From assembly GCA_022360445.1 (NCBI GenBank), contig JAKSCV010000022.1, forward strand, positions 1,868 to 65,867: 64,000 nucleotides of DNA, given 5' to 3'. Below the pieces are notes generated by a model that saw only the letters and a program-made list of their open reading frames with translations, did not search any database and was not told the DNA's origin. Positions 3,729 to 24,935 of this stretch are shown in pieces (within the stretch, counting starts at the first letter, position 1; every line of letters starts with the position of its first letter). Origin of the DNA: Gammaproteobacteria bacterium (GTDB taxonomy: Bacteria > Pseudomonadota > Gammaproteobacteria > UBA5861). Position numbers and translations under genes: made by a program.

Positions 3729-4949
3729 TTAAGGCACACGCTGGTTGATGCTAATTGAGACGGTCTCTTCAAGACCGAGCTGGAGCTCAGCCACTTCACC
3801 GAAGAGGTCTCCGCTAGCAGCGCTTGGTGTACCAGTGGTGGAGATGCGCGCAGTGACTTTAAAGGCATCAACCGATGAAAGCTTCAGAGCGGGCGACATG
3901 GCTTTTGAATCATCAAGTACCAGAGTGAATGGCAGCTCCCCTACAGTTTTCTTGACGGCTGCAAGTGGCATTTTGGGACCATGTTGTGCGGTTGCAAATA
4001 CAAAGACCGTATCCTTGGGATTAACCGTGTCACTTAAGTCTTCTGCTAAGGATATGCGCACGGTGATAGAGGCGTTTTCTGTTGCGGGAATAGTGTTGGC
4101 AGAGGTAGTTTCTCCCAAACGGTTGTTTGCACTTGCGATCATTTGACTTAATTCGGAAGCCGCTCTTGGATCTTCTGCCAAATGTACTTTTGCTTTTTGC
4201 CAATAGTCCACAGCGTTTTTGAGGTTGCCGGCACGTTCTTCTGCGACCCCCATAAGCCACAAAGCTTGAGGTTGTTCGGGCGCGATAGCGAGTGCTTTTT
4301 TGAGTAAATTGACAGGCTCTTCTGAAAATTGTCCGCCTTGCGACATGACGATGGCATCGGCCATGCGGACAAGAACCGTGGGTTCATCACCGACCAATTC
4401 ATGCAATTTTCTCAGCGCATCAACAGACTTTTTGTATTGACCCGACACCATATAAGTCCGTGCAAGCACAAACCACCCAGTGGCATCCTTCGGATCTTCA
4501 GCCAAGCGGCTTTTTATTTGTGCGATGAGTTCATCAATCGTAGGTTGTTCGCTGTTTTGTAAAGCAGCCTGGGTTGATTGCAGTTGAATTGCGCCAGGCG
4601 AGCCCAGGGAAAAATACAGTGCGCCAGCGGAGAGAGGAATAATGAAGAAGATCAATAAGCCAGCCCACCGTCCCTTAGTCGCAGCGGCTTTTTGGGAAGC
4701 TTGTGCTTTAAGGTCAACCGCGAGCGACTGTTCAATTTCTGCCAAGGCGGTTTGATAGCTCGTTTGGCTAATTTCGCCACGATCCAAAGTTATTTTTAAT
4801 TCAGCATGTTTTTGCCGGGCAATGTCGATATTGAGTTGTTCCCGATCATCACTGGGTACAGCGCTGTGTTTTTGTCGAATAAAGGGCCATGCGAGTAAGG
4901 CGGCGGACAACAAAGCGATAGCGCCTGCAATTACATAAAAGGTTGCCAT
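3729..4949 (-). CDS. ccmI: Cytochrome c biogenesis protein CcmI/CycH (TM segments + TPR repeats + C-terminal domain)
   Basis: Two hydrophobic segments, TPR-like DATGWFVLARTY and PQALWLMG, C-terminal GPKMPLAA/ARISTTG domain; follows ccmH. Confidence 0.92.
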   Translation of the reverse strand: MATFYVIAGAIALLSAALLAWPFIRQKHSAVPSDDREQLNIDIARQKHAELKITLDRGEISQTSYQTALAEIEQSLAVDLKAQASQKAAATKGRWAGLLIFFIIPLSAGALYFSLGSPGAIQLQSTQAALQNSEQPTIDELIAQIKSRLAEDPKDATGWFVLARTYMVSGQYKKSVDALRKLHELVGDEPTVLVRMADAIVMSQGGQFSEEPVNLLKKALAIAPEQPQALWLMGVAEERAGNLKNAVDYWQKAKVHLAEDPRAASELSQMIASANNRLGETTSANTIPATENASITVRISLAEDLSDTVNPKDTVFVFATAQHGPKMPLAAVKKTVGELPFTLVLDDSKAMSPALKLSSVDAFKVTARISTTGTPSAASGDLFGEVAELQLGLEETVSISINQRVP

Positions 4950-20135: not shown

Positions 20136-20959
20136 TTACAACAGCCTGTTTAGTGCCAAATCGAGCGAGTCATATTTAAAGGAAAAACCGGCGCTCAGTA
20201 CTTTTTGGGGCATTACTTTTTTTCCCGAAAGCAGTAACTCTTTCCCCATTTGTCCCATTAATAACTTGACTGCAAAGGCGGGGAGAGTAAACCACGTTGG
20301 GCGGTGCAGTGTCCGCCCCAGTGTTTGTGTGAAGACAGTATTCGTCACAGGGTTAGGGGAAACGCCATTCACAGGGCCACTCATCGTGTCGTGATGGAGA
20401 CAATACAATATGATATTAATTAAATCGTCCCGGTGTATCCACGGCATCCACTGGTGGCCATGGCCAATTTTCCCTCCAAGGCCTAATTTAAAAGGAAGCA
20501 ACATCTTCTTCAGGGCTCCACCTTCCTTGCCCAGCACAATGCCTGTGCGTAACAAGCAAGTTCGGATACCCATGGCTTGCGCTTGTAGCGCAGCAGCTTC
20601 CCACTGCTGACACGATTGGCTGGAAAAACTCTCGTTCCCCGGCGCCTCTTCGGTAATCTCATCATTGCCCGTGCCGACGCCATAAAACCCGATGGCAGAT
20701 CCACTGATCATCGTGCTCGGCTTTTGATATGTGGTCTGTAAATAGGTGATCAGATTCTGTGTGGTTTTGAGCCGGCTGGTGCAGATCCTATTTTTTTGTG
20801 CCGTTGTCCAGCGCTTATCTGCAATCGGTTCCCCAGCCAGATTAATCACAGCATCACAGGCGTTCGGCTGAGCACTGTGATGTCATGGCCTTCCGCTAAC
20901 AAATGGGAACAAAGGGCGGACCCAATAAAACCTGTGCCCCCCGTCATTAATACGTTCAT
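20136..20959 (-). pseudogene. TIGR01777/YfcH-like NAD-dependent epimerase, disrupted near the 5' end
   Basis: ATG at 20959 gives MNVLMTGGTGFIGSALCSHLLAEGHDITVLSRTPVML*. A different frame resumes ...CDAVINLAGEPIADKRW...LRTGIVL...WMPWIH. This indicates a frameshift with an apparent internal deletion near 20860. Confidence 0.8.
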
Positions 20960-20978
20960 TGGCTTAACCTTGTCTCTC

Positions 20979-21010
20979 TAGCAAAATCAAAGAGGTCAGA
21001 CTCGACTGAT
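20979..21010 (+). repeat. Repeat copy 1 (left inverted repeat of the RAYT-like gene)
   Basis: TAGCAAAATCAAAGAGGTCAGACTCGACTGAT; 27/32 identical to the reverse complement of 21782-21813; ends 7 nt from the transposase stop codon. Confidence 0.88.
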
Positions 21011-21017
21011 CTATTAA

Positions 21018-21734
21018 TTAGTTGAATCTAGCCTGTTTATACGCTTTCGATCTCCTATCACCACCACGACTAGCAGGACTAACAGGTCGATTTAACTGGT
21101 TCGCAATTTTCTGCTTAAAATGATTGCTACCCAATACCCACGCTTTGTTTGTTGCTGTGCGAATATCGCTGAGTGTTTTCTCACTAATGTGCGCTTGAAA
21201 CAATGATCGATATGCCGCTTGTCTTTCTTCACCCGTTTTGCCTAAACCAGTGTATTCCGAATGCGGCGCTACAAGTGCGTTAACCTGGCCTAACGCATTG
21301 TAACGGTCACTCGACCAGGGATATTCTGATGGGTGCTCAACCATGCCTTCTGCTCTGACAGGGTTCAGTTCGATATAGCGATAACAGGTTAGCAAATAGT
21401 TTTCTGTGTCAATGAGGGTCGCTTTGTAACGCCCTTCCCAAAGGGTGCCTGTACGGTTATAGGAACGATTGAAGTATTGGACATAATACCGCCCCAGCAT
21501 TTGCATAGCTTTGCTAATGCCTTGCTCTGTTTGTGGCGTGAGCAGAAAATGCACATGATTTGTCATTAAGACATAGGCATGAACATCACATTGGTGCTTG
21601 TCGCAGGCCTGCTTTAGCTTTTCCAGATAAAACCGATAGTCTTCATCGGCGTAGAAAATCGGATCACGATTATTACCCCGAACGATGATATGTTGTGGTT
21701 GACCGGGAATAACAAAGCGGGCTTGACGCGGCAT
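21018..21734 (-). mobile_element. HUH/Y1 tyrosine transposase, REP-associated (RAYT/TnpA-REP)-like
   Basis: MPRQAR start, HIIVRGNNRDPIF, HUH motif in AYVLMTNHVHFLL, RTGTLWEGRY, catalytic Tyr in RYIELNPVRA, EYPWSS; no tnpB nearby. Confidence 0.9.
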
Positions 21735-21780
21735 GGATCGATATTCGATAAAAACCAAAAATAACTTAACCAAGCACGTC

Positions 21781-21821
21781 AATCAACCGAGTCTGACCCT
21801 ATTGATTTTGCTATTGATTTT
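21781..21821 (-). repeat. Repeat copy 2 (inverted) with duplicated 5' end
   Basis: The minus strand reads AAAATCAATAG-C-AAAATCAATAGGGTCAGACTCGGTTGATT. Confidence 0.88.
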
Positions 21822-21833
21822 CAGGTCATGGTT

Positions 21834-22070
21834 TTAATTTTGGGGAGAGGTCACTACGATCCTAGATACCAGTTTTTGCGTAATCGGCACGATCACCATG
21901 CTGATCGGAAACGCGACCAGCATGGATATTCCCCAGGCTTTGGGCCATTGCGTTATCACATCAATGAAGGTCGCTAATTCTATCGACAGCATGGCCAGGG
22001 ACATCACGCCCGACATCAACAGCGACATGAAAAAAGAAAAAGTGTGAAACTGGAACTTGTGCGGAATCAT
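21834..22070 (-). CDS. DUF2798-like small membrane protein
   Basis: FSFFMSLLMSGVMS...WPKAWGISMLVAFP; two TM segments. Confidence 0.75.
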   Translation of the reverse strand: MIPHKFQFHTFSFFMSLLMSGVMSLAMLSIELATFIDVITQWPKAWGISMLVAFPISMVIVPITQKLVSRIVVTSPQN

Positions 22071-22097
22071 TCTGGTAATCTCCTGTTTGGCTGTTAT

Positions 22098-22628
22098 TCA
22101 GGCTTGTAACAGCGGTGACAAAGTTTCTTCCAACTTCGCAACCAACTCCGGGTTTGTGAGTACACCCTCATCCCGATCAAAGTTCTTGTAGAACTCAGGG
22201 ATAGACAAAGAGGCCATCACCTTGCCTGCAAAAAAGTGTGCGGATTCAACAGCAAGGGATAACACGCTTTGCGCGCCGCCCGCCCCCGGTGAGGTCGACA
22301 GCATGATGATCGGTTTGCTCTGATAGACTTCCTGGTTCTTTCGTGAAGCCCAGTCAAACAGGTTTTTGTAGGCTACGGTATAGTTGCCGTTGTGTTCCGC
22401 GTAGGAGATCACCAGCGCATCTGCTGCCGCGATTTTATCGAGAAAGCGGGAGGCGGCTTCGGGTATACCATGGGCCTCCTCGAGATCGCTGCTATAGAGG
22501 GGCATTTCATAGTCATTAATATCGATAATTTCCACATCGCTATCGGGCAGCAGTGTAGAGGCATAGCGAATTAAATCCTTGTTGATCGACTTGCGGCTAT
22601 TGCTTGCTGCGAATGCTAAAACTTTCAT
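22098..22628 (-). CDS. NADPH-dependent FMN reductase (flavodoxin-like)
   Basis: MKVLAFAASNSRKSIN, AEHNGNYTVAYKNLFDWASR, STSPGAGGA; AGGAG ribosome-binding site. Confidence 0.9.
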   Translation of the reverse strand: MKVLAFAASNSRKSINKDLIRYASTLLPDSDVEIIDINDYEMPLYSSDLEEAHGIPEAASRFLDKIAAADALVISYAEHNGNYTVAYKNLFDWASRKNQEVYQSKPIIMLSTSPGAGGAQSVLSLAVESAHFFAGKVMASLSIPEFYKNFDRDEGVLTNPELVAKLEETLSPLLQA

Positions 22629-22668
22629 GTTTTTCTCCTGTAATGATCGTATTTCAGATTCGGGGTGG

Positions 22669-23571
22669 TTATTCGAGGTGGCCGAGTTTGCCGGCCGCAT
22701 AGTCCGCTTCGACCTGCGCTATCTCAGTCTCGTTGCTCATCACAAAGGGGCCCTTCTGAACGAAGGCTTCCTTAAGGGGCACGGCGGCAAATAGCGCAAA
22801 GTGTGCGCCTGACGCTGCAACATTCGTAATCTCAATCGTATTGGTAGCGGAATCGGAACTTGCTTCGATAGCGATGGATTCGCCTGCTTGCAGTGTTACT
22901 TTCTCACCCGCAACACTGAGTTCGACCGCGCCTTCTACGGCATATACCCAGCCGTTCTCACCAGCCTGCAAGTCGTGGGCAAAGGTAGATCCGGCAGCAA
23001 TCTTGCCGTCGAGAATGGTCATGGGCAGCGCGGGTGATATCTGGCCCTTAATGCCGTTGCTGGCGCCGAGTACGATGCGAACGCGATGACCATCGGCTTC
23101 CAGAGTGGGCATGTCCTGTGCTTTCACACGCAGTGATTCAGGGGTATTTTGTTTCATCCGCGCGGGCAGGTTCACAAAAACCTGCAAGCCGTGAATGTTT
23201 GAGCCCGCCCTGGGCGCCTCATCGTGAACAGCGCCGGAGCCGGCCTTTAACCAGTACAGATCGCCGGGCATCAAATCGAAATCGTTGCCAAGTGAATCCC
23301 GGTTGTGAAATTTACCCTCGCTATCCTCAAAGAGTACGGACACCGCGGAGAGGCCGGCGTGGGGGTGTGCACCAAAGGTCGATTCGCTCATGCGATAGTG
23401 ATCGACCATTACCAGCGGATCCATCGCGCCTGCGAAATCCCGCTCGCGAAAAGCGTTTGCGGTAAAACCTGAGCCTATCTCAAGTGCGTTGCCACCTTTT
23501 GGGGCAGTGATGGATGCGGATGTAGCGCTATCAAATGTCAGATTTTTTGCAAAAGAAGTTGCTGCGTTCAT
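22669..23571 (-). CDS. Pirin family protein
   Basis: DPLVMVDH, FGAHPHAG, AGSGAVHDE, HGLQVFVNLP, GPFVMS. Confidence 0.93.
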   Translation of the reverse strand: MNAATSFAKNLTFDSATSASITAPKGGNALEIGSGFTANAFRERDFAGAMDPLVMVDHYRMSESTFGAHPHAGLSAVSVLFEDSEGKFHNRDSLGNDFDLMPGDLYWLKAGSGAVHDEAPRAGSNIHGLQVFVNLPARMKQNTPESLRVKAQDMPTLEADGHRVRIVLGASNGIKGQISPALPMTILDGKIAAGSTFAHDLQAGENGWVYAVEGAVELSVAGEKVTLQAGESIAIEASSDSATNTIEITNVAASGAHFALFAAVPLKEAFVQKGPFVMSNETEIAQVEADYAAGKLGHLE

Positions 23572-23664
23572 TGTGCGATCTCCTCGTTAAGTTGTTTCGT
23601 AATCACGGTTTAGATATTAACAATGGAACGATAAGGTCTTGTAGATTCAAAAAATGAAAACTTC

Positions 23665-23680
23665 GTTCTATAATTGGAAC
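23665..23680. promoter_or_regulatory. Possible LysR operator between the divergent pirin and lysR genes
   Basis: GTTC-TATAATTG-GAAC dyad containing T-N11-A just upstream of the LysR start. Confidence 0.45.
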
Positions 23681-23708
23681 AATAGACGAGTTAAATGCGG
23701 CGAACCAA

Positions 23709-24629
23709 ATGGCTATGATCGACCTGAATGACTACTTCTATTTTGTCCACGTGGTGGAAAAACGGGGCTTTTCTCCCGCCGCAAGAGCTCTCAATATGCC
23801 CAAGTCACGCTTGAGTCGGCATGTCTCGCAACTGGAGGAAAGGCTCGATACCCGCTTGATACAAAGAACTTCCCGCCAGTTTAAAGTGACCGAAACAGGC
23901 GAGGTGTTTTACCAGCATGCCCGGGCACTGATTGAGGAAATGGAAGCCGCCGAAGCGGCAATTCAAAGCCGCAAGGAGTCACTAAGCGGGCGCGTCACCA
24001 TGAGTTGCTCGGTAGGTGTTGCCCAGTTTGCCATTAAGGATCTGGTGTTTGAATTTCTGCAGAAGCACCCGAAGGTAAATGTGGTCCAGCAGGTGACGAG
24101 CCAATCGGTCGATCTGGTCTCTACCGGAATAGACATGGCCGTAAGAGGCCATACCGAAGCGCTGCCTGATTCGACTCTTATTCAGCGTCACCTGGCTAAT
24201 GTGTCCTGGCACCTGTTTGCGAGTCCCGAGTACTTGGCTCGAACCGGCACGCCGCAGTCGCCCTATGATTTGTTTAAAAGACAAAGCTTGAAGGTGGGTT
24301 GGCAACCGGCCACCGGGTACTGGAACCTGGAGAACAAGGATGGGCAGAAAACCACGGTGCCGTTTACCCCGCAACTTTGCAGCGATGACATGACAACGTT
24401 GAAACAAGCGGCGGCGAAAGGGCTGGGTATAGTGAGCATGCCAGCTTATACTTGCAGAGATGAACTCAATGATGGATCGCTGGTGCGGGTCCTGCCTGAG
24501 TGGGTAGCCGGGAAAGCGCAATTGAGCCTGGTAACGCCATCTCGCCGTGGACAATCACCCTCCGTTCGCGCACTGCTGGATTACCTGTTAAACAACTTGA
24601 ATGCACGGATCGGTGATCCGCCGGGTTAG
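23709..24629 (+). CDS. LysR family transcriptional regulator (CrgA-like)
   Basis: N-terminal HTH GFSPAARALNMPKSRLSRHVSQLEERL, LIQRTSR; divergent from pirin. Confidence 0.95.
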   Translation: MAMIDLNDYFYFVHVVEKRGFSPAARALNMPKSRLSRHVSQLEERLDTRLIQRTSRQFKVTETGEVFYQHARALIEEMEAAEAAIQSRKESLSGRVTMSCSVGVAQFAIKDLVFEFLQKHPKVNVVQQVTSQSVDLVSTGIDMAVRGHTEALPDSTLIQRHLANVSWHLFASPEYLARTGTPQSPYDLFKRQSLKVGWQPATGYWNLENKDGQKTTVPFTPQLCSDDMTTLKQAAAKGLGIVSMPAYTCRDELNDGSLVRVLPEWVAGKAQLSLVTPSRRGQSPSVRALLDYLLNNLNARIGDPPG

Positions 24630-24661
24630 CATGGGGGTGGATTCAGGAAGGCGCATCGGTT

Positions 24662-24747
24662 AAATCAAAGGGGAAATCAAAGGGGTCAGACTCGATTGAT
24701 CACTGCTGTGGGTCAGAGTCATTGATTTGTGAGTCCATTGATTTTGC
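24662..24747 (+). repeat. Repeat copy 3 with duplicated 5' end, plus degenerate fragments
   Basis: AAATCAAAGGGG-AAATCAAAGGGGTCAGACTCGATTGATC (24674-24701 is 26/28 identical to 20984-21011), then GGGTCAGAGTCATTGATTT (24710-24728) and ATTGATTTTGC (24737-24747). Confidence 0.85.
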
Positions 24748-24935
24748 AATCAGTTTTGTCGGTACTTAATTAACAGGTTTGGATGCTGCATATTTAGTTA
24801 GTAAACGAGCAATAAGGGGGTTAGCACTGGTTTTTTATATGATGACTCTTGTTCCTTTTTAATAATGTGCATGATCTTTAGTTTTTCAGAAAGAGCGATA
24901 GCGTTTTCAATACAGCCTGGCTGTTTGAGTATGTG

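What the first reader, a model, noticed from the sequence alone, without database searches (positions are those of the whole stretch)
20979..24747. RAYT-like HUH nuclease with a repeat-bracketed four-gene cargo: candidate gene-capture system
Seen in sequence: one ~28-32 bp repeat (consensus AAATCAAWRRGGTCAGACTCGRYTGAT) occurs three times in about 3.8 kb, and I did not notice it elsewhere in the window. Copy 1 (forward, 20979) and copy 2 (reverse, 21782) enclose only the Y1/HUH transposase gene. Copy 2 and copy 3 (forward, 24674) enclose a self-contained unit of DUF2798, FMN reductase, pirin and a divergent LysR. The DUF2798 stop is 12 nt from copy 2 and the LysR stop about 30 nt from copy 3, so the boundaries are gene-tight. 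The cargo looks GC-richer than the transposase by eye. Established: RAYT/TnpA-REP proteins cut single-stranded DNA at hairpin repeats and are generally regarded as domesticated rather than cargo-mobilising. Inference: here the repeats act as junctions for HUH-mediated capture or exchange of whole regulated gene modules, like an integron but without a tyrosine recombinase.
Basis: partly seen in the sequence, partly recalled or inferred. Interest (0 to 1): 0.8.

Follow-up and report, generated by a model that had tools for sequence, protein, structure and literature searches.

The report
Small transposon beside a relocated operon
This is a known but little-studied small mobile element, a single-strand-DNA transposase gene between its own inverted hairpin repeats, and a stray third repeat encloses an ordinary stress-response operon that lies elsewhere in the sister species.

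Summary
The three repeat copies are real: 20984-21010 (+), 21782-21808 (-) and 24674-24700 (+), against 0 expected by chance. Copies 1 and 2 with the Y1/HUH gene form a TIRtron, a TIRYT tyrosine transposase between terminal inverted hairpin repeats (Di Nocera 2013; Quentin 2018 subclass 2.1).

The same 25-27-nt hairpin flanks homologues in Gamma-, Beta- and Zetaproteobacteria and Desulfobulbales: 49 of 71 loci have both flanks. Within-genome copies are 98-99% identical exactly from repeat to repeat, about 825 bp, so the unit behaves like an insertion sequence.

The genome holds only 6 copies. In the one same-genus genome the yfcH-rmuC interval lacks transposase, repeats and operon. The operon sits there beside a tRNA-Met gene, with core-like synonymous divergence.

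Capture is not shown either. None of 22 metagenomic homologues of the operon carries the repeat. Every mobile unit I could delimit is the transposase unit alone. Repeat-bracketed intervals elsewhere include housekeeping genes.

Verdict: new member of a known kind. Repeat-mediated relocation stays open, at about 0.2. This scan has noted the same pattern in other genomes.

The parts
20984..21010 (+). Repeat copy 1: terminal inverted repeat at the 3' end of the transposase unit, a hairpin
   Evidence: Pattern match with 0 mismatches. It sits where 59 of 77 homologous loci carry the downstream inverted copy. The hairpin is supported by covariation.
21018..21734 (-). TIRYT gene: a Y1/HUH tyrosine transposase of 238 aa, with the HUH motif (H61-V-H63), catalytic Tyr121 and a conserved C-terminal extension of about 95 aa
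   Evidence: Pfam Y1_Tnp, E 3.4e-17. NCBIfam REP-associated tyrosine transposase, 80.8 bits against a cutoff of 80. H61, H63 and Y121 are invariant in 21 homologues. The profile's best PDB hit is 4ER8, and 4er8_A is the Foldseek top hit at E 3.8e-7.
21782..21821 (-). Repeat copy 2 (21782-21808) plus a tandem half-copy (21810-21821): the terminal inverted repeat about 50-70 nt upstream of the transposase start codon
   Evidence: 60 of 74 homologous loci carry the upstream copy, with a modal distance of 66-72 nt.
21834..22070 (-). DUF2798 small membrane protein gene, last gene of the operon
   Evidence: Pfam PF11391, E 3.5e-15.
22098..22631 (-). NADPH-dependent FMN reductase family gene
   Evidence: Pfam PF03358, E 1.3e-31.
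22669..23571 (-). Pirin family (bicupin) gene
   Evidence: Pfam Pirin and Pirin_C.
23709..24629 (+). Divergently transcribed LysR-family regulator gene
   Evidence: Pfam HTH_1 and LysR_substrate.
24662..24746 (+). Repeat copy 3 (24674-24700), with a half-copy before it and two degenerate same-strand fragments after it: a solo or decayed repeat cluster
   Evidence: Copy 3 differs from copy 1 at 2 of 27 positions and from copy 2 at 4 of 27 (read).
20972..24866 (.). The whole block is absent from the syntenic yfcH-rmuC interval of the same-genus genome G001, which holds about 325 bp of unrelated sequence there
   Evidence: The rest of the 64-kb window is collinear with G001:C24 at 86-92% identity.

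Best explanation
Window 20984-21808 is a TIRtron. This is a small autonomous element of about 825 bp, made of one gene for a TIRYT (a RAYT-like HUH/Y1 tyrosine transposase) between two inverted copies of a 25-27-nt hairpin.

By analogy with solved relatives (TnpA-REP, IS608 TnpA), the enzyme would bind the hairpin on single-stranded DNA and cut and rejoin at its foot. No target duplication results. That step is inferred, not shown here.

The element also leaves solo and doublet copies of its end in nearby intergenic spacers. Copy 3, with its degenerate neighbours, is such a stray or decayed end.

The LysR-pirin-FMN reductase-DUF2798 operon between copies 2 and 3 is an ordinary native accessory operon, a likely redox or quinone stress module. 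It is not a dedicated cargo.

The element arrived in this lineage after the split from the sister species. It sits in a variable spot between yfcH and rmuC. The operon has a different chromosomal position in the two species, and whether the element caused that move is not established.
For: Family:
- Pfam Y1_Tnp.
- The NCBIfam REP-associated tyrosine transposase model is just above its cutoff, and the IS200 model is below its own.
- 4ER8 is the best hit both by profile and by fold.
- Di Nocera 2013 (PMC3733652, passages read) defines TIRtrons, and many of their repeats share the motif GGGGWSAS. The consensus here reads GGGGTCAG.
- Quentin 2018 (PMC6006769, passages read) places 20 of 26 TIRYTs in subclass 2.1.

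Cognate ends:
- Among 80 homologous loci at 63-77% aa identity, spanning four proteobacterial or desulfobacterial lineages, 60 of 74 have the upstream copy, 59 of 77 the downstream inverted copy, and 49 of 71 both. Distances are fixed.
- Hairpin: 82.4% of cells pair against 77.0% in shuffles. Covariation is 0.196 against 0.098. No shuffle of 500 reached either value, and all slid registers score lower.

Mobility of the unit alone:
- Three copies in one MAG are 98.4-99.4% identical over 822-826 bp, and two copies in Methylophilus aquaticus are 98.8% identical over 828 bp. Homology stops at the outer repeat ends, and I saw no flanking duplication.
- A 98%-identical unit is shared by two Electrothrix species whose flanks are 84-90% identical.
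- An 88%-identical unit occurs in a congener of G402.
- Distribution is patchy: 52 of 401 genomes of the class, at most 33 copies, and 0 for the reversed control pattern.

Stray ends:
- 18 of 80 loci have extra copies. Their density falls from 0.156 per kb (0.16-1 kb away) to 0.007 per kb (5-10 kb away).
- In other genomes the dispersed copies are mostly inverted doublets 70-100 bp apart.

The operon is native:
- Identity at four-fold sites to the sister species is 0.73-0.87 for the four operon genes and 0.69-0.88 for five flanking core genes.
- Its GC equals that of the flanks.
- The LysR-pirin core recurs in other contexts in 19 of 22 metagenome loci, none with the repeat.
Against: - The block of transposase unit, operon and third repeat is a single indel relative to the sister species, and the operon lies elsewhere there. 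Independent insertions of a unit and a stray end on both sides of a resident operon do not explain why the operon is missing from this site in G001.
- The same architecture (unit, gene, third repeat) is one indel relative to two congeners in G033. It lies inside a 5.15-kb island that is empty in three congeners of G402.
- In G402 and G401 the bracketed gene also has homologues elsewhere in congeners.
- Only one same-genus genome was available, and it is a draft of 60 contigs and 97% completeness, so the ancestral position of the operon cannot be told.
- No biochemistry exists for any TIRYT in the papers I read.
Confidence: 0.7

Rival explanations
1. Passenger-carrying transposition. Copies 1 and 3 lie on the same strand, like the left and right ends of IS608. 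The enzyme used them, or skipped copy 2, to move the transposase gene and the neighbouring operon as one 3.7-kb unit. In this genome's lineage that unit went from the tRNA-Met site to the yfcH-rmuC spacer.
For: - The operon is single-copy and orthologous in age, yet sits at different loci in the two species. Each species has the other's site empty.
- The sister species has no repeat and no orthologous transposase.
- The relocated homology (21854-24618) fills the repeat-bracketed interval to within 46 and 56 nt.
- Copy 3 is closer to copy 1 than to copy 2.
- In G033 the left edge of the indel lies within a few bases of the outer repeat end.
- In G402 a single-copy gene between repeats has homologues at other loci in two congeners, whose syntenic site is empty.
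Against: - In all four comparisons where the moving unit is delimited, it is the transposase unit alone.
- The right edge of the indel lies about 115-165 nt beyond copy 3 here and about 400 nt beyond it in G033, not at the repeat.
- No repeat remnant is seen at the empty tRNA-Met site.
- In the sister species the operon sits at its site without any repeat.
- 0 of 22 operon homologues carry the repeat.
- Variable islands attract both accessory genes and insertion sequences, so co-occurrence is expected anyway.
Confidence: 0.2
2. A classical domesticated REP/RAYT system. A single-copy, vertically inherited host gene maintains a population of REP or REPIN sequences, and the third copy is simply one member of that population.
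For: - There is one intact gene in this genome.
- The NCBIfam RAYT model is matched.
- The repeats are hairpins and form inverted doublets in other genomes.
Against: - This genome has only 6 copies, and no genome among 401 has more than 33.
- The gene and its repeats were not found in the same-genus genome.
- Other genomes hold several 98-99% identical gene copies.
- A 98%-identical unit is shared across species.
- The repeat carries no GTAG-type tag (read). Bertels 2017 (PMC5581495, passages read) reports low flanking-repeat counts and probable horizontal transfer for one RAYT group. That matches this behaviour better than the domesticated groups do.
Confidence: 0.05
3. An integron-like platform. 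The repeats act as recombination junctions at which the HUH enzyme serially captures and exchanges whole regulated gene modules.
For: - All four repeat-bearing loci of this genome lie in DNA not found in the sister species, whereas the other roughly 60 kb of the window is collinear with it.
- Repeat-bracketed intervals next to the gene are common: 25 intervals in 80 loci.
Against: - The bracketed contents are heterogeneous. They include other insertion sequences, toxin-antitoxin genes and a 6-kb amidase-TsaE-Nnr-acyl-CoA synthetase cluster; I recall these genes as core, which no call tested.
- There are no arrays of same-orientation cassettes.
- No module was found with the repeats in two contexts.
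- The operon has its own regulator and promoter region.
Confidence: 0.04

Closest known systems
TIRtrons / TIRYT (TIR-associated tyrosine transposases; Di Nocera, De Gregorio and Rocco 2013, PMC3733652), which largely correspond to TnpA-Y1 subclass 2.1 of Quentin et al. 2018 (PMC6006769)
   Same: A RAYT-like Y1/HUH gene longer than TnpA-REP, flanked at fixed distances by inverted repeats that carry GGGGWSAS. The repeats also occur as low-copy singles, dimers and clusters.
   Different: The papers, as far as I read them (passages only), do not describe three things seen here: near-invariance of one 25-27-nt hairpin across several classes, the IS-like 825-bp multi-copy units, or genes bracketed by a third repeat. 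For subclass 2.1, Quentin et al. state that no REP-like sequences were found near the genes.
REP/REPIN-RAYT systems (E. coli TnpA-REP, PDB 4ER8; Bertels and Rainey)
   Same: The best structural and profile match. The repeats are hairpins, the gene is flanked by inverted copies, and dispersed copies form inverted doublets.
   Different: Copy number is units to tens rather than tens to hundreds. The gene is patchy, multi-copy in some genomes and moves between species. There is no GTAG-type tag.
IS200/IS605 family (IS608, ISDra2)
   Same: A Y1 HUH transposase, hairpin ends, no visible target duplication, and a small size.
   Different: The ends are inverted rather than same-strand subterminal hairpins. 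The NCBIfam IS200 model scores 23.9 against a cutoff of 55. There is no tnpB.
ISCR/IS91 elements and eukaryotic Helitrons (HUH elements known to pick up neighbouring genes; recalled, no call)
   Different: Those enzymes are large two-tyrosine, rolling-circle Rep-like proteins. This one is a 238-aa single-tyrosine enzyme, and end read-through has not been shown for it.

Membership tests
TIRtron / TIRYT | Y1 transposase fold with HUH motif and catalytic tyrosine | tested here: met
   Pfam Y1_Tnp, E 3.4e-17. H61, H63 and Y121 are invariant in 21 homologues. They align to HMH and the Y of YINPV in 4ER8. Fold match to 4er8_A, TM 0.75 normalised to the target.
TIRtron / TIRYT | Closer to RAYT (TnpA-REP) than to IS200 TnpA | tested here: met
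   NF047646 scores 80.8 bits (cutoff 80). NF033573 IS200 scores 23.9 (cutoff 55). 4ER8 ranks first by both sequence profile and fold. The RAYT model is passed only narrowly.
TIRtron / TIRYT | Gene flanked by terminal inverted repeats at conserved distances | tested here: met
   Copies 1 and 2 are inverted around the gene. 49 of 71 homologous loci have both copies, with modal distances of 66-72 nt upstream and 9-33 nt downstream.
TIRtron / TIRYT | Repeat carries the GGGGWSAS motif | tested here: met
   The consensus of 130 copies reads GGGGTCAG. Copy 3 matches exactly; copies 1 (GAGGTCAG) and 2 (AGGGTCAG) each have one mismatch.
TnpA-Y1 subclass 2.1 (Quentin 2018) | C-terminal helix-turn-helix extension (Bac_DnaA_C, HTH_23 or HTH_28-like) | tested here: inconclusive
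   There is a conserved extension of about 95 aa with invariant residues up to position 230. The AlphaFold model shows three helices there, but at pLDDT about 45. None of the 21 members hits a Pfam HTH family at E up to 1.
Classical REP/RAYT (REPtron) | Cognate repeat present at high copy number, tens to hundreds per genome | tested here: not met
   This genome has 6 copies at up to 1 mismatch. The maximum among 401 genomes of the class is 33.
Classical REP/RAYT (REPtron) | Single-copy, vertically inherited gene | tested here: not met
   Not found in the same-genus genome. Other genomes hold 98-99% identical multi-copy units. A 98%-identical unit is shared across species.
IS200/IS605 | Same-strand subterminal hairpins at the left and right ends, without inverted termini | tested here: not met
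   The two ends are inverted copies of one hairpin.
IS200/IS605 | Multiple near-identical copies with sharp ends and no target duplication | tested here: met
   Met in relatives. This genome has one intact copy, plus a repeat at C18:16464 that carries about 25 nt resembling the 5' leader of the unit.
Integron | IntI tyrosine recombinase with an attI site, and promoterless attC cassettes in one orientation | tested here: not met
   No recombinase domain was found among the 8 ORFs scanned between 18357 and 26234. The bracketed unit carries its own divergent LysR regulator.
ISCR / IS91 | Large Rep-like HUH transposase with two catalytic tyrosines, and ori/ter ends | tested here: not met
   The protein is a 238-aa single-domain Y1 enzyme.

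The most novel reading that the evidence does not exclude
TIRYT elements can carry passengers. When a third repeat lies on the same strand as the first, the enzyme would move the transposase gene together with whatever lies between. Under this reading the operon moved from the tRNA-Met site to the yfcH-rmuC spacer in this lineage as part of a 3.7-kb unit. That would make these elements a Y1-type route for moving chromosomal operons within and between genomes.
Probability: 0.2. Interest if true: 0.7.

Novelty: new member of a known kind. Interest (0 to 1): 0.4.

Why it matters
No TIRYT has been studied biochemically in the papers I read. It is still debated whether RAYT-like enzymes are domesticated host genes or working transposases.

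This subfamily gives clean material for that question:
- One nearly invariant 25-27-nt hairpin is conserved across several bacterial classes.
- Multi-copy units of about 825 bp have sharp ends.
- In this window, a sister-species comparison shows a native operon of core-like age in a repeat-bracketed slot, with both alternative sites preserved empty.

If the element moved that operon, Y1 transposons would join ISCR elements as movers of ordinary chromosomal genes. If not, this is a routine insertion sequence in a variable spot.

Tried and rejected
1. Sequencing runs. Four metagenome runs hold the organism only as short contigs at depth 2-4. No joint skips the transposase unit or the operon. Such data cannot show rare excision, so this says nothing either way. 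The one listed joint (23424 to 24381) comes from 22x contigs with a 29-nt side and is probably another organism.

2. Polarising the move with an outgroup.
   - The 22 metagenome loci with operon homologues (51-84% aa identity) have flanks with no close counterpart in this genome.
   - None of the 13 loci I scanned has a tRNA gene.
   - The ancestral site therefore stays unknown.

3. A donor-site scar. The 96-bp spacer at the empty tRNA-Met site has no repeat-like remnant.

4. Foreign origin of the operon. Rejected: four-fold-site identity and GC match the core genes.

5. A single-sequence search of solved structures found nothing at E up to 0.01. Only the profile reached 4ER8.

6. Plasmid carriage. 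32 of 72,556 plasmid records hold relatives, all below 60% identity, so there is no sign that this subfamily rides plasmids.

7. A Y1-like remnant beside a paralogous LysR-pirin pair in G001:C15 has no repeat within 4 mismatches and no convincing inverted repeats. I treat it as coincidence.

8. The G405/G428 comparison was ambiguous because G428 is fragmented.

9. Literature searches for the core motif, for TIRYT, and for passenger genes of Y1 elements found no description of repeat-bracketed genes next to TIRYTs. Supplements of the two key papers were not opened and may list this subfamily.

Full report
**Observation.** None of 100 shuffles gave a match. A fourth hit of the 10-nt core at 24711 belongs to a run of degenerate same-strand fragments behind copy 3, and both copy 2 and copy 3 have a tandem half-copy beside them. 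The genes are as described: Y1_Tnp, DUF2798, FMN_red, pirin and a divergent LysR gene. They lie between a broken yfcH-like gene and rmuC.

**What the first two copies are.** The protein is a 238-aa Y1/HUH enzyme.
- It passes the NCBIfam model for REP-associated tyrosine transposases narrowly (80.8 bits, cutoff 80) and fails the IS200 model (23.9, cutoff 55).
- A profile of 21 homologues has E. coli TnpA-REP (4ER8) as its best solved relative. The HUH histidines and the catalytic tyrosine align.
- An AlphaFold model (mean pLDDT 70) has 4er8_A as its top Foldseek hit at E 3.8e-7, ahead of the IS608 and ISDra2 transposases.
- Passages of Quentin et al. 2018 and Di Nocera et al. 2013 describe exactly this arrangement as a TIRtron: a RAYT-like gene (TIRYT) flanked by terminal inverted repeats, many of which share the motif GGGGWSAS. 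The consensus here is GGGGTCAG.
- The C-terminal helix-turn-helix reported for this subclass could not be confirmed. The extension is conserved, but it is modelled at low confidence and has no Pfam hit.

**The repeat is the element's own end, conserved across distant hosts.**
- A scan of one genome per species found 310 relatives. The best 80 loci (63-77% aa identity) come from Gamma-, Beta- and Zetaproteobacteria and Desulfobulbales.
- Of these, 60 of 74 with enough upstream sequence carry the repeat about 66-72 nt before the start codon. 59 of 77 carry the inverted copy 9-33 nt after, or overlapping, the stop. 49 of 71 carry both.
- Conservation stops at the outer edge of a block of about 27 nt.
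- On 130 distinct copies the proposed hairpin is a 6-8-bp outer stem, a conserved inner GGG/CTC stem and a 5-nt loop. It pairs in 82.4% of cells against 77.0% in shuffles. Covariation is 0.196 against 0.098. No shuffle of 500 reached either value, and every slid register scores lower. Some double changes come from copies with a one-base shift, so the outer-stem pairs are the clean evidence.

**The unit behaves as an insertion sequence.**
- In one MAG, three copies are 98.4-99.4% identical over 822-826 bp. In Methylophilus aquaticus, two copies are 98.8% identical over 828 bp. Homology ends at the outer repeat ends and I saw no flanking duplication.
- Two Electrothrix species whose flanks are 84-90% identical share a unit at 98% identity, again exactly from repeat to repeat.
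- A congener of G402 has the unit at 88%.
- Among 401 genomes of the window's class, 52 have the motif, none has the reversed control, and the largest count is 33. Same-genus genomes often differ in presence.
- This matches the low-copy, horizontally moving RAYT group that Bertels et al. 2017 describe (passages). I did not test membership of their group.

**Stray ends are a normal by-product.**
- In the 80 loci (1.10 Mb), 97 of 130 strict repeat copies lie within 160 bp of the gene.
- 18 of 80 loci have further copies. Their density falls from 0.156 per kb at 0.16-1 kb to 0.065, 0.012 and 0.007 per kb further out.
- Elsewhere in those genomes the dispersed form is mostly an inverted doublet 70-100 bp long.
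- A third copy 2.9 kb from the unit is therefore uncommon but in family.

- First test, not met. The repeat is not an abundant genome-wide REP. The 3.46-Mb draft holds 6 copies at up to one mismatch: three here and one each on contigs C18, C107 and C86. All four loci lie in DNA with no match in the one same-genus genome, G001. The other roughly 60 kb of the window is collinear with G001 at 86-92% identity. G001 has no repeat and only a 47%-identical broken paralogue of the gene. It is a draft (97% complete, 60 contigs), so these are 'not found' statements.
- Second test, not met. The operon is not syntenic with rmuC in G001. There the yfcH-rmuC spacer holds about 325 bp of unrelated sequence. 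The four genes lie on another contig, between a transporter gene of the SBF family and the 3' end of a tRNA-Met gene, with no repeat. In the window's genome that tRNA-Met site is a 96-bp spacer.

**The operon is native, not foreign.** Identity at four-fold degenerate sites between the two species is 0.73-0.87 for the four operon genes and 0.69-0.88 for five flanking core genes. The lower nucleotide identity of the operon comes from faster protein change. Its GC equals that of the neighbours, and the transposase unit is the low-GC part. So one lineage relocated an operon inherited from the common ancestor. With a single relative and no usable outgroup, I cannot say which lineage.

**Evidence against a capture system.**
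- None of 22 metagenome loci holding operon homologues (51-84% aa identity) has the repeat or the transposase. Two weak motif hits there are spurious. The LysR-pirin core is simply a widespread unit found in many contexts.
- The 25 repeat-bracketed intervals without the gene in the 80 loci hold a mixed bag. They include MazF and PIN toxin genes, two other insertion sequences and an ABC transporter. One 6-kb stretch holds amidase, TsaE, Nnr and acyl-CoA synthetase genes, which I recall as core genes. 18 of the 40 ORFs scanned have no Pfam family.
- Wherever the moving unit can be delimited, it carries no passenger.
- Here the right edge of the indel lies about 115-165 nt beyond copy 3, not at it.

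**Evidence that keeps the idea alive.** I repeated the sister-species test on five other loci where a gene sits between the unit and a further repeat.
- G033: the unit, a PEP-CTERM-type gene (named from its C-terminal sequence; no Pfam hit), the third repeat and about 400 bp more form one 2-kb indel against two congeners, which have 100-140 bp there. The left break lies within a few bases of the outer repeat end.
- G402: the unit lies in a 5.15-kb island that is 37-38 bp in three congeners. The single-copy bracketed gene has homologues on other contigs in two of them, at 83% and 76% identity, against 85% and 84% for the flanks.
- G401: flank, bracketed cupredoxin-like gene and other flank lie far apart in the congeners. 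This is a 6.6-kb MAG contig and could be chimeric at repeats. One of the ten congeners is unpublished, and the statement does not rest on it.
- G404: the block is replaced by 6.6 kb of other DNA in the closest congener, and the bracketed gene was not found in 8 congeners.
- G405: ambiguous.

Counting the window, in five of six cases the bracketed gene shares the indel with the unit, and in three of six it has homologues elsewhere in congeners. This fits co-mobilisation. It fits equally well a bias of insertion sequences and accessory genes towards the same permissive, variable spots. The operon's internal spacers are 27-137 nt, so its two outer junctions are almost the only harmless insertion sites between yfcH and rmuC.

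**Assembly.** The copies differ at 2-4 of 27 positions, so a mis-join across them is unlikely. Contigs from runs X2 and X4 bridge copy 2, and a contig from X2 bridges copy 3. These runs may include the source sample and are not independent.

**Verdict.** It is a TIRtron, a known but little-studied kind, and a new member of it that behaves like an insertion sequence. The bracketed operon is a native operon that changed place between sister species. A causal role of the element is possible (about 0.2) but not shown. Earlier notes of this scan report the same combination of TIRtron, gene and third end in other genomes. I reached the classification before reading them and did not test their cases.

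Noticed in passing
window 20136-20959 (-), break at about 20856: The yfcH-like (TIGR01777) oxidoreductase gene next to copy 1 is broken. About 64 bp present in G001 are missing, which shifts the frame, so the N-terminal 35 codons run into a stop. A contig in run X1 carries the undeleted form.
   Followed up: partly
G000:C18:16464-16480 (L097 about 3965-3981): This solo repeat is followed by about 25 nt resembling the 5' leader of the window's transposase unit. It looks like the stump of a second unit whose gene was lost. It lies between a choice-of-anchor I gene and a MarR gene.
   Followed up: partly
G000:C107 (L098 3306-4181 and 6436-6452): A broken 41%-identical Y1 paralogue lies beside a RecQ gene. 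A solo copy of the window's repeat follows RecQ and precedes another FMN reductase gene and redox genes (AhpC/TSA, AraC). The whole 9 kb was not found in G001.
   Followed up: partly
G001:C15 (L105 4918-7613): A truncated TIRYT-like ORF (47% identity to residues 4-98) lies about 470 bp from a paralogous LysR-pirin pair. This is a second adjacency of the two gene types in this genus, with no recognisable repeat.
   Followed up: partly
L013 3522-3845 (G001 yfcH-rmuC spacer): The 325 bp that G001 has in place of the block has no match in the window's genome. By eye it may hold the remains of a small gene. It was not tested.
   Followed up: no
homologous loci, 3' end of the gene: In 10 of the 20 homologues listed, the reading frame ends ...NRV or ...NGV with its stop codon inside the downstream repeat (TGA of GTCTGAC). 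In the window the gene stops 8 nt before copy 1.
   Followed up: no
run X1, loose end at window 24618: A contig continues after the LysR gene with the sequence that follows it in G001 (the tRNA-Met side). So the sister-type arrangement is present in the same coded coral-reef study as contigs matching the window's arrangement.
   Followed up: partly
L015 5900-5981 (G033): A repeat of about 80 bp, unrelated to the TIR, occurs at several places in the congeners G244 and G390 and lies inside the G033 indel.
   Followed up: no
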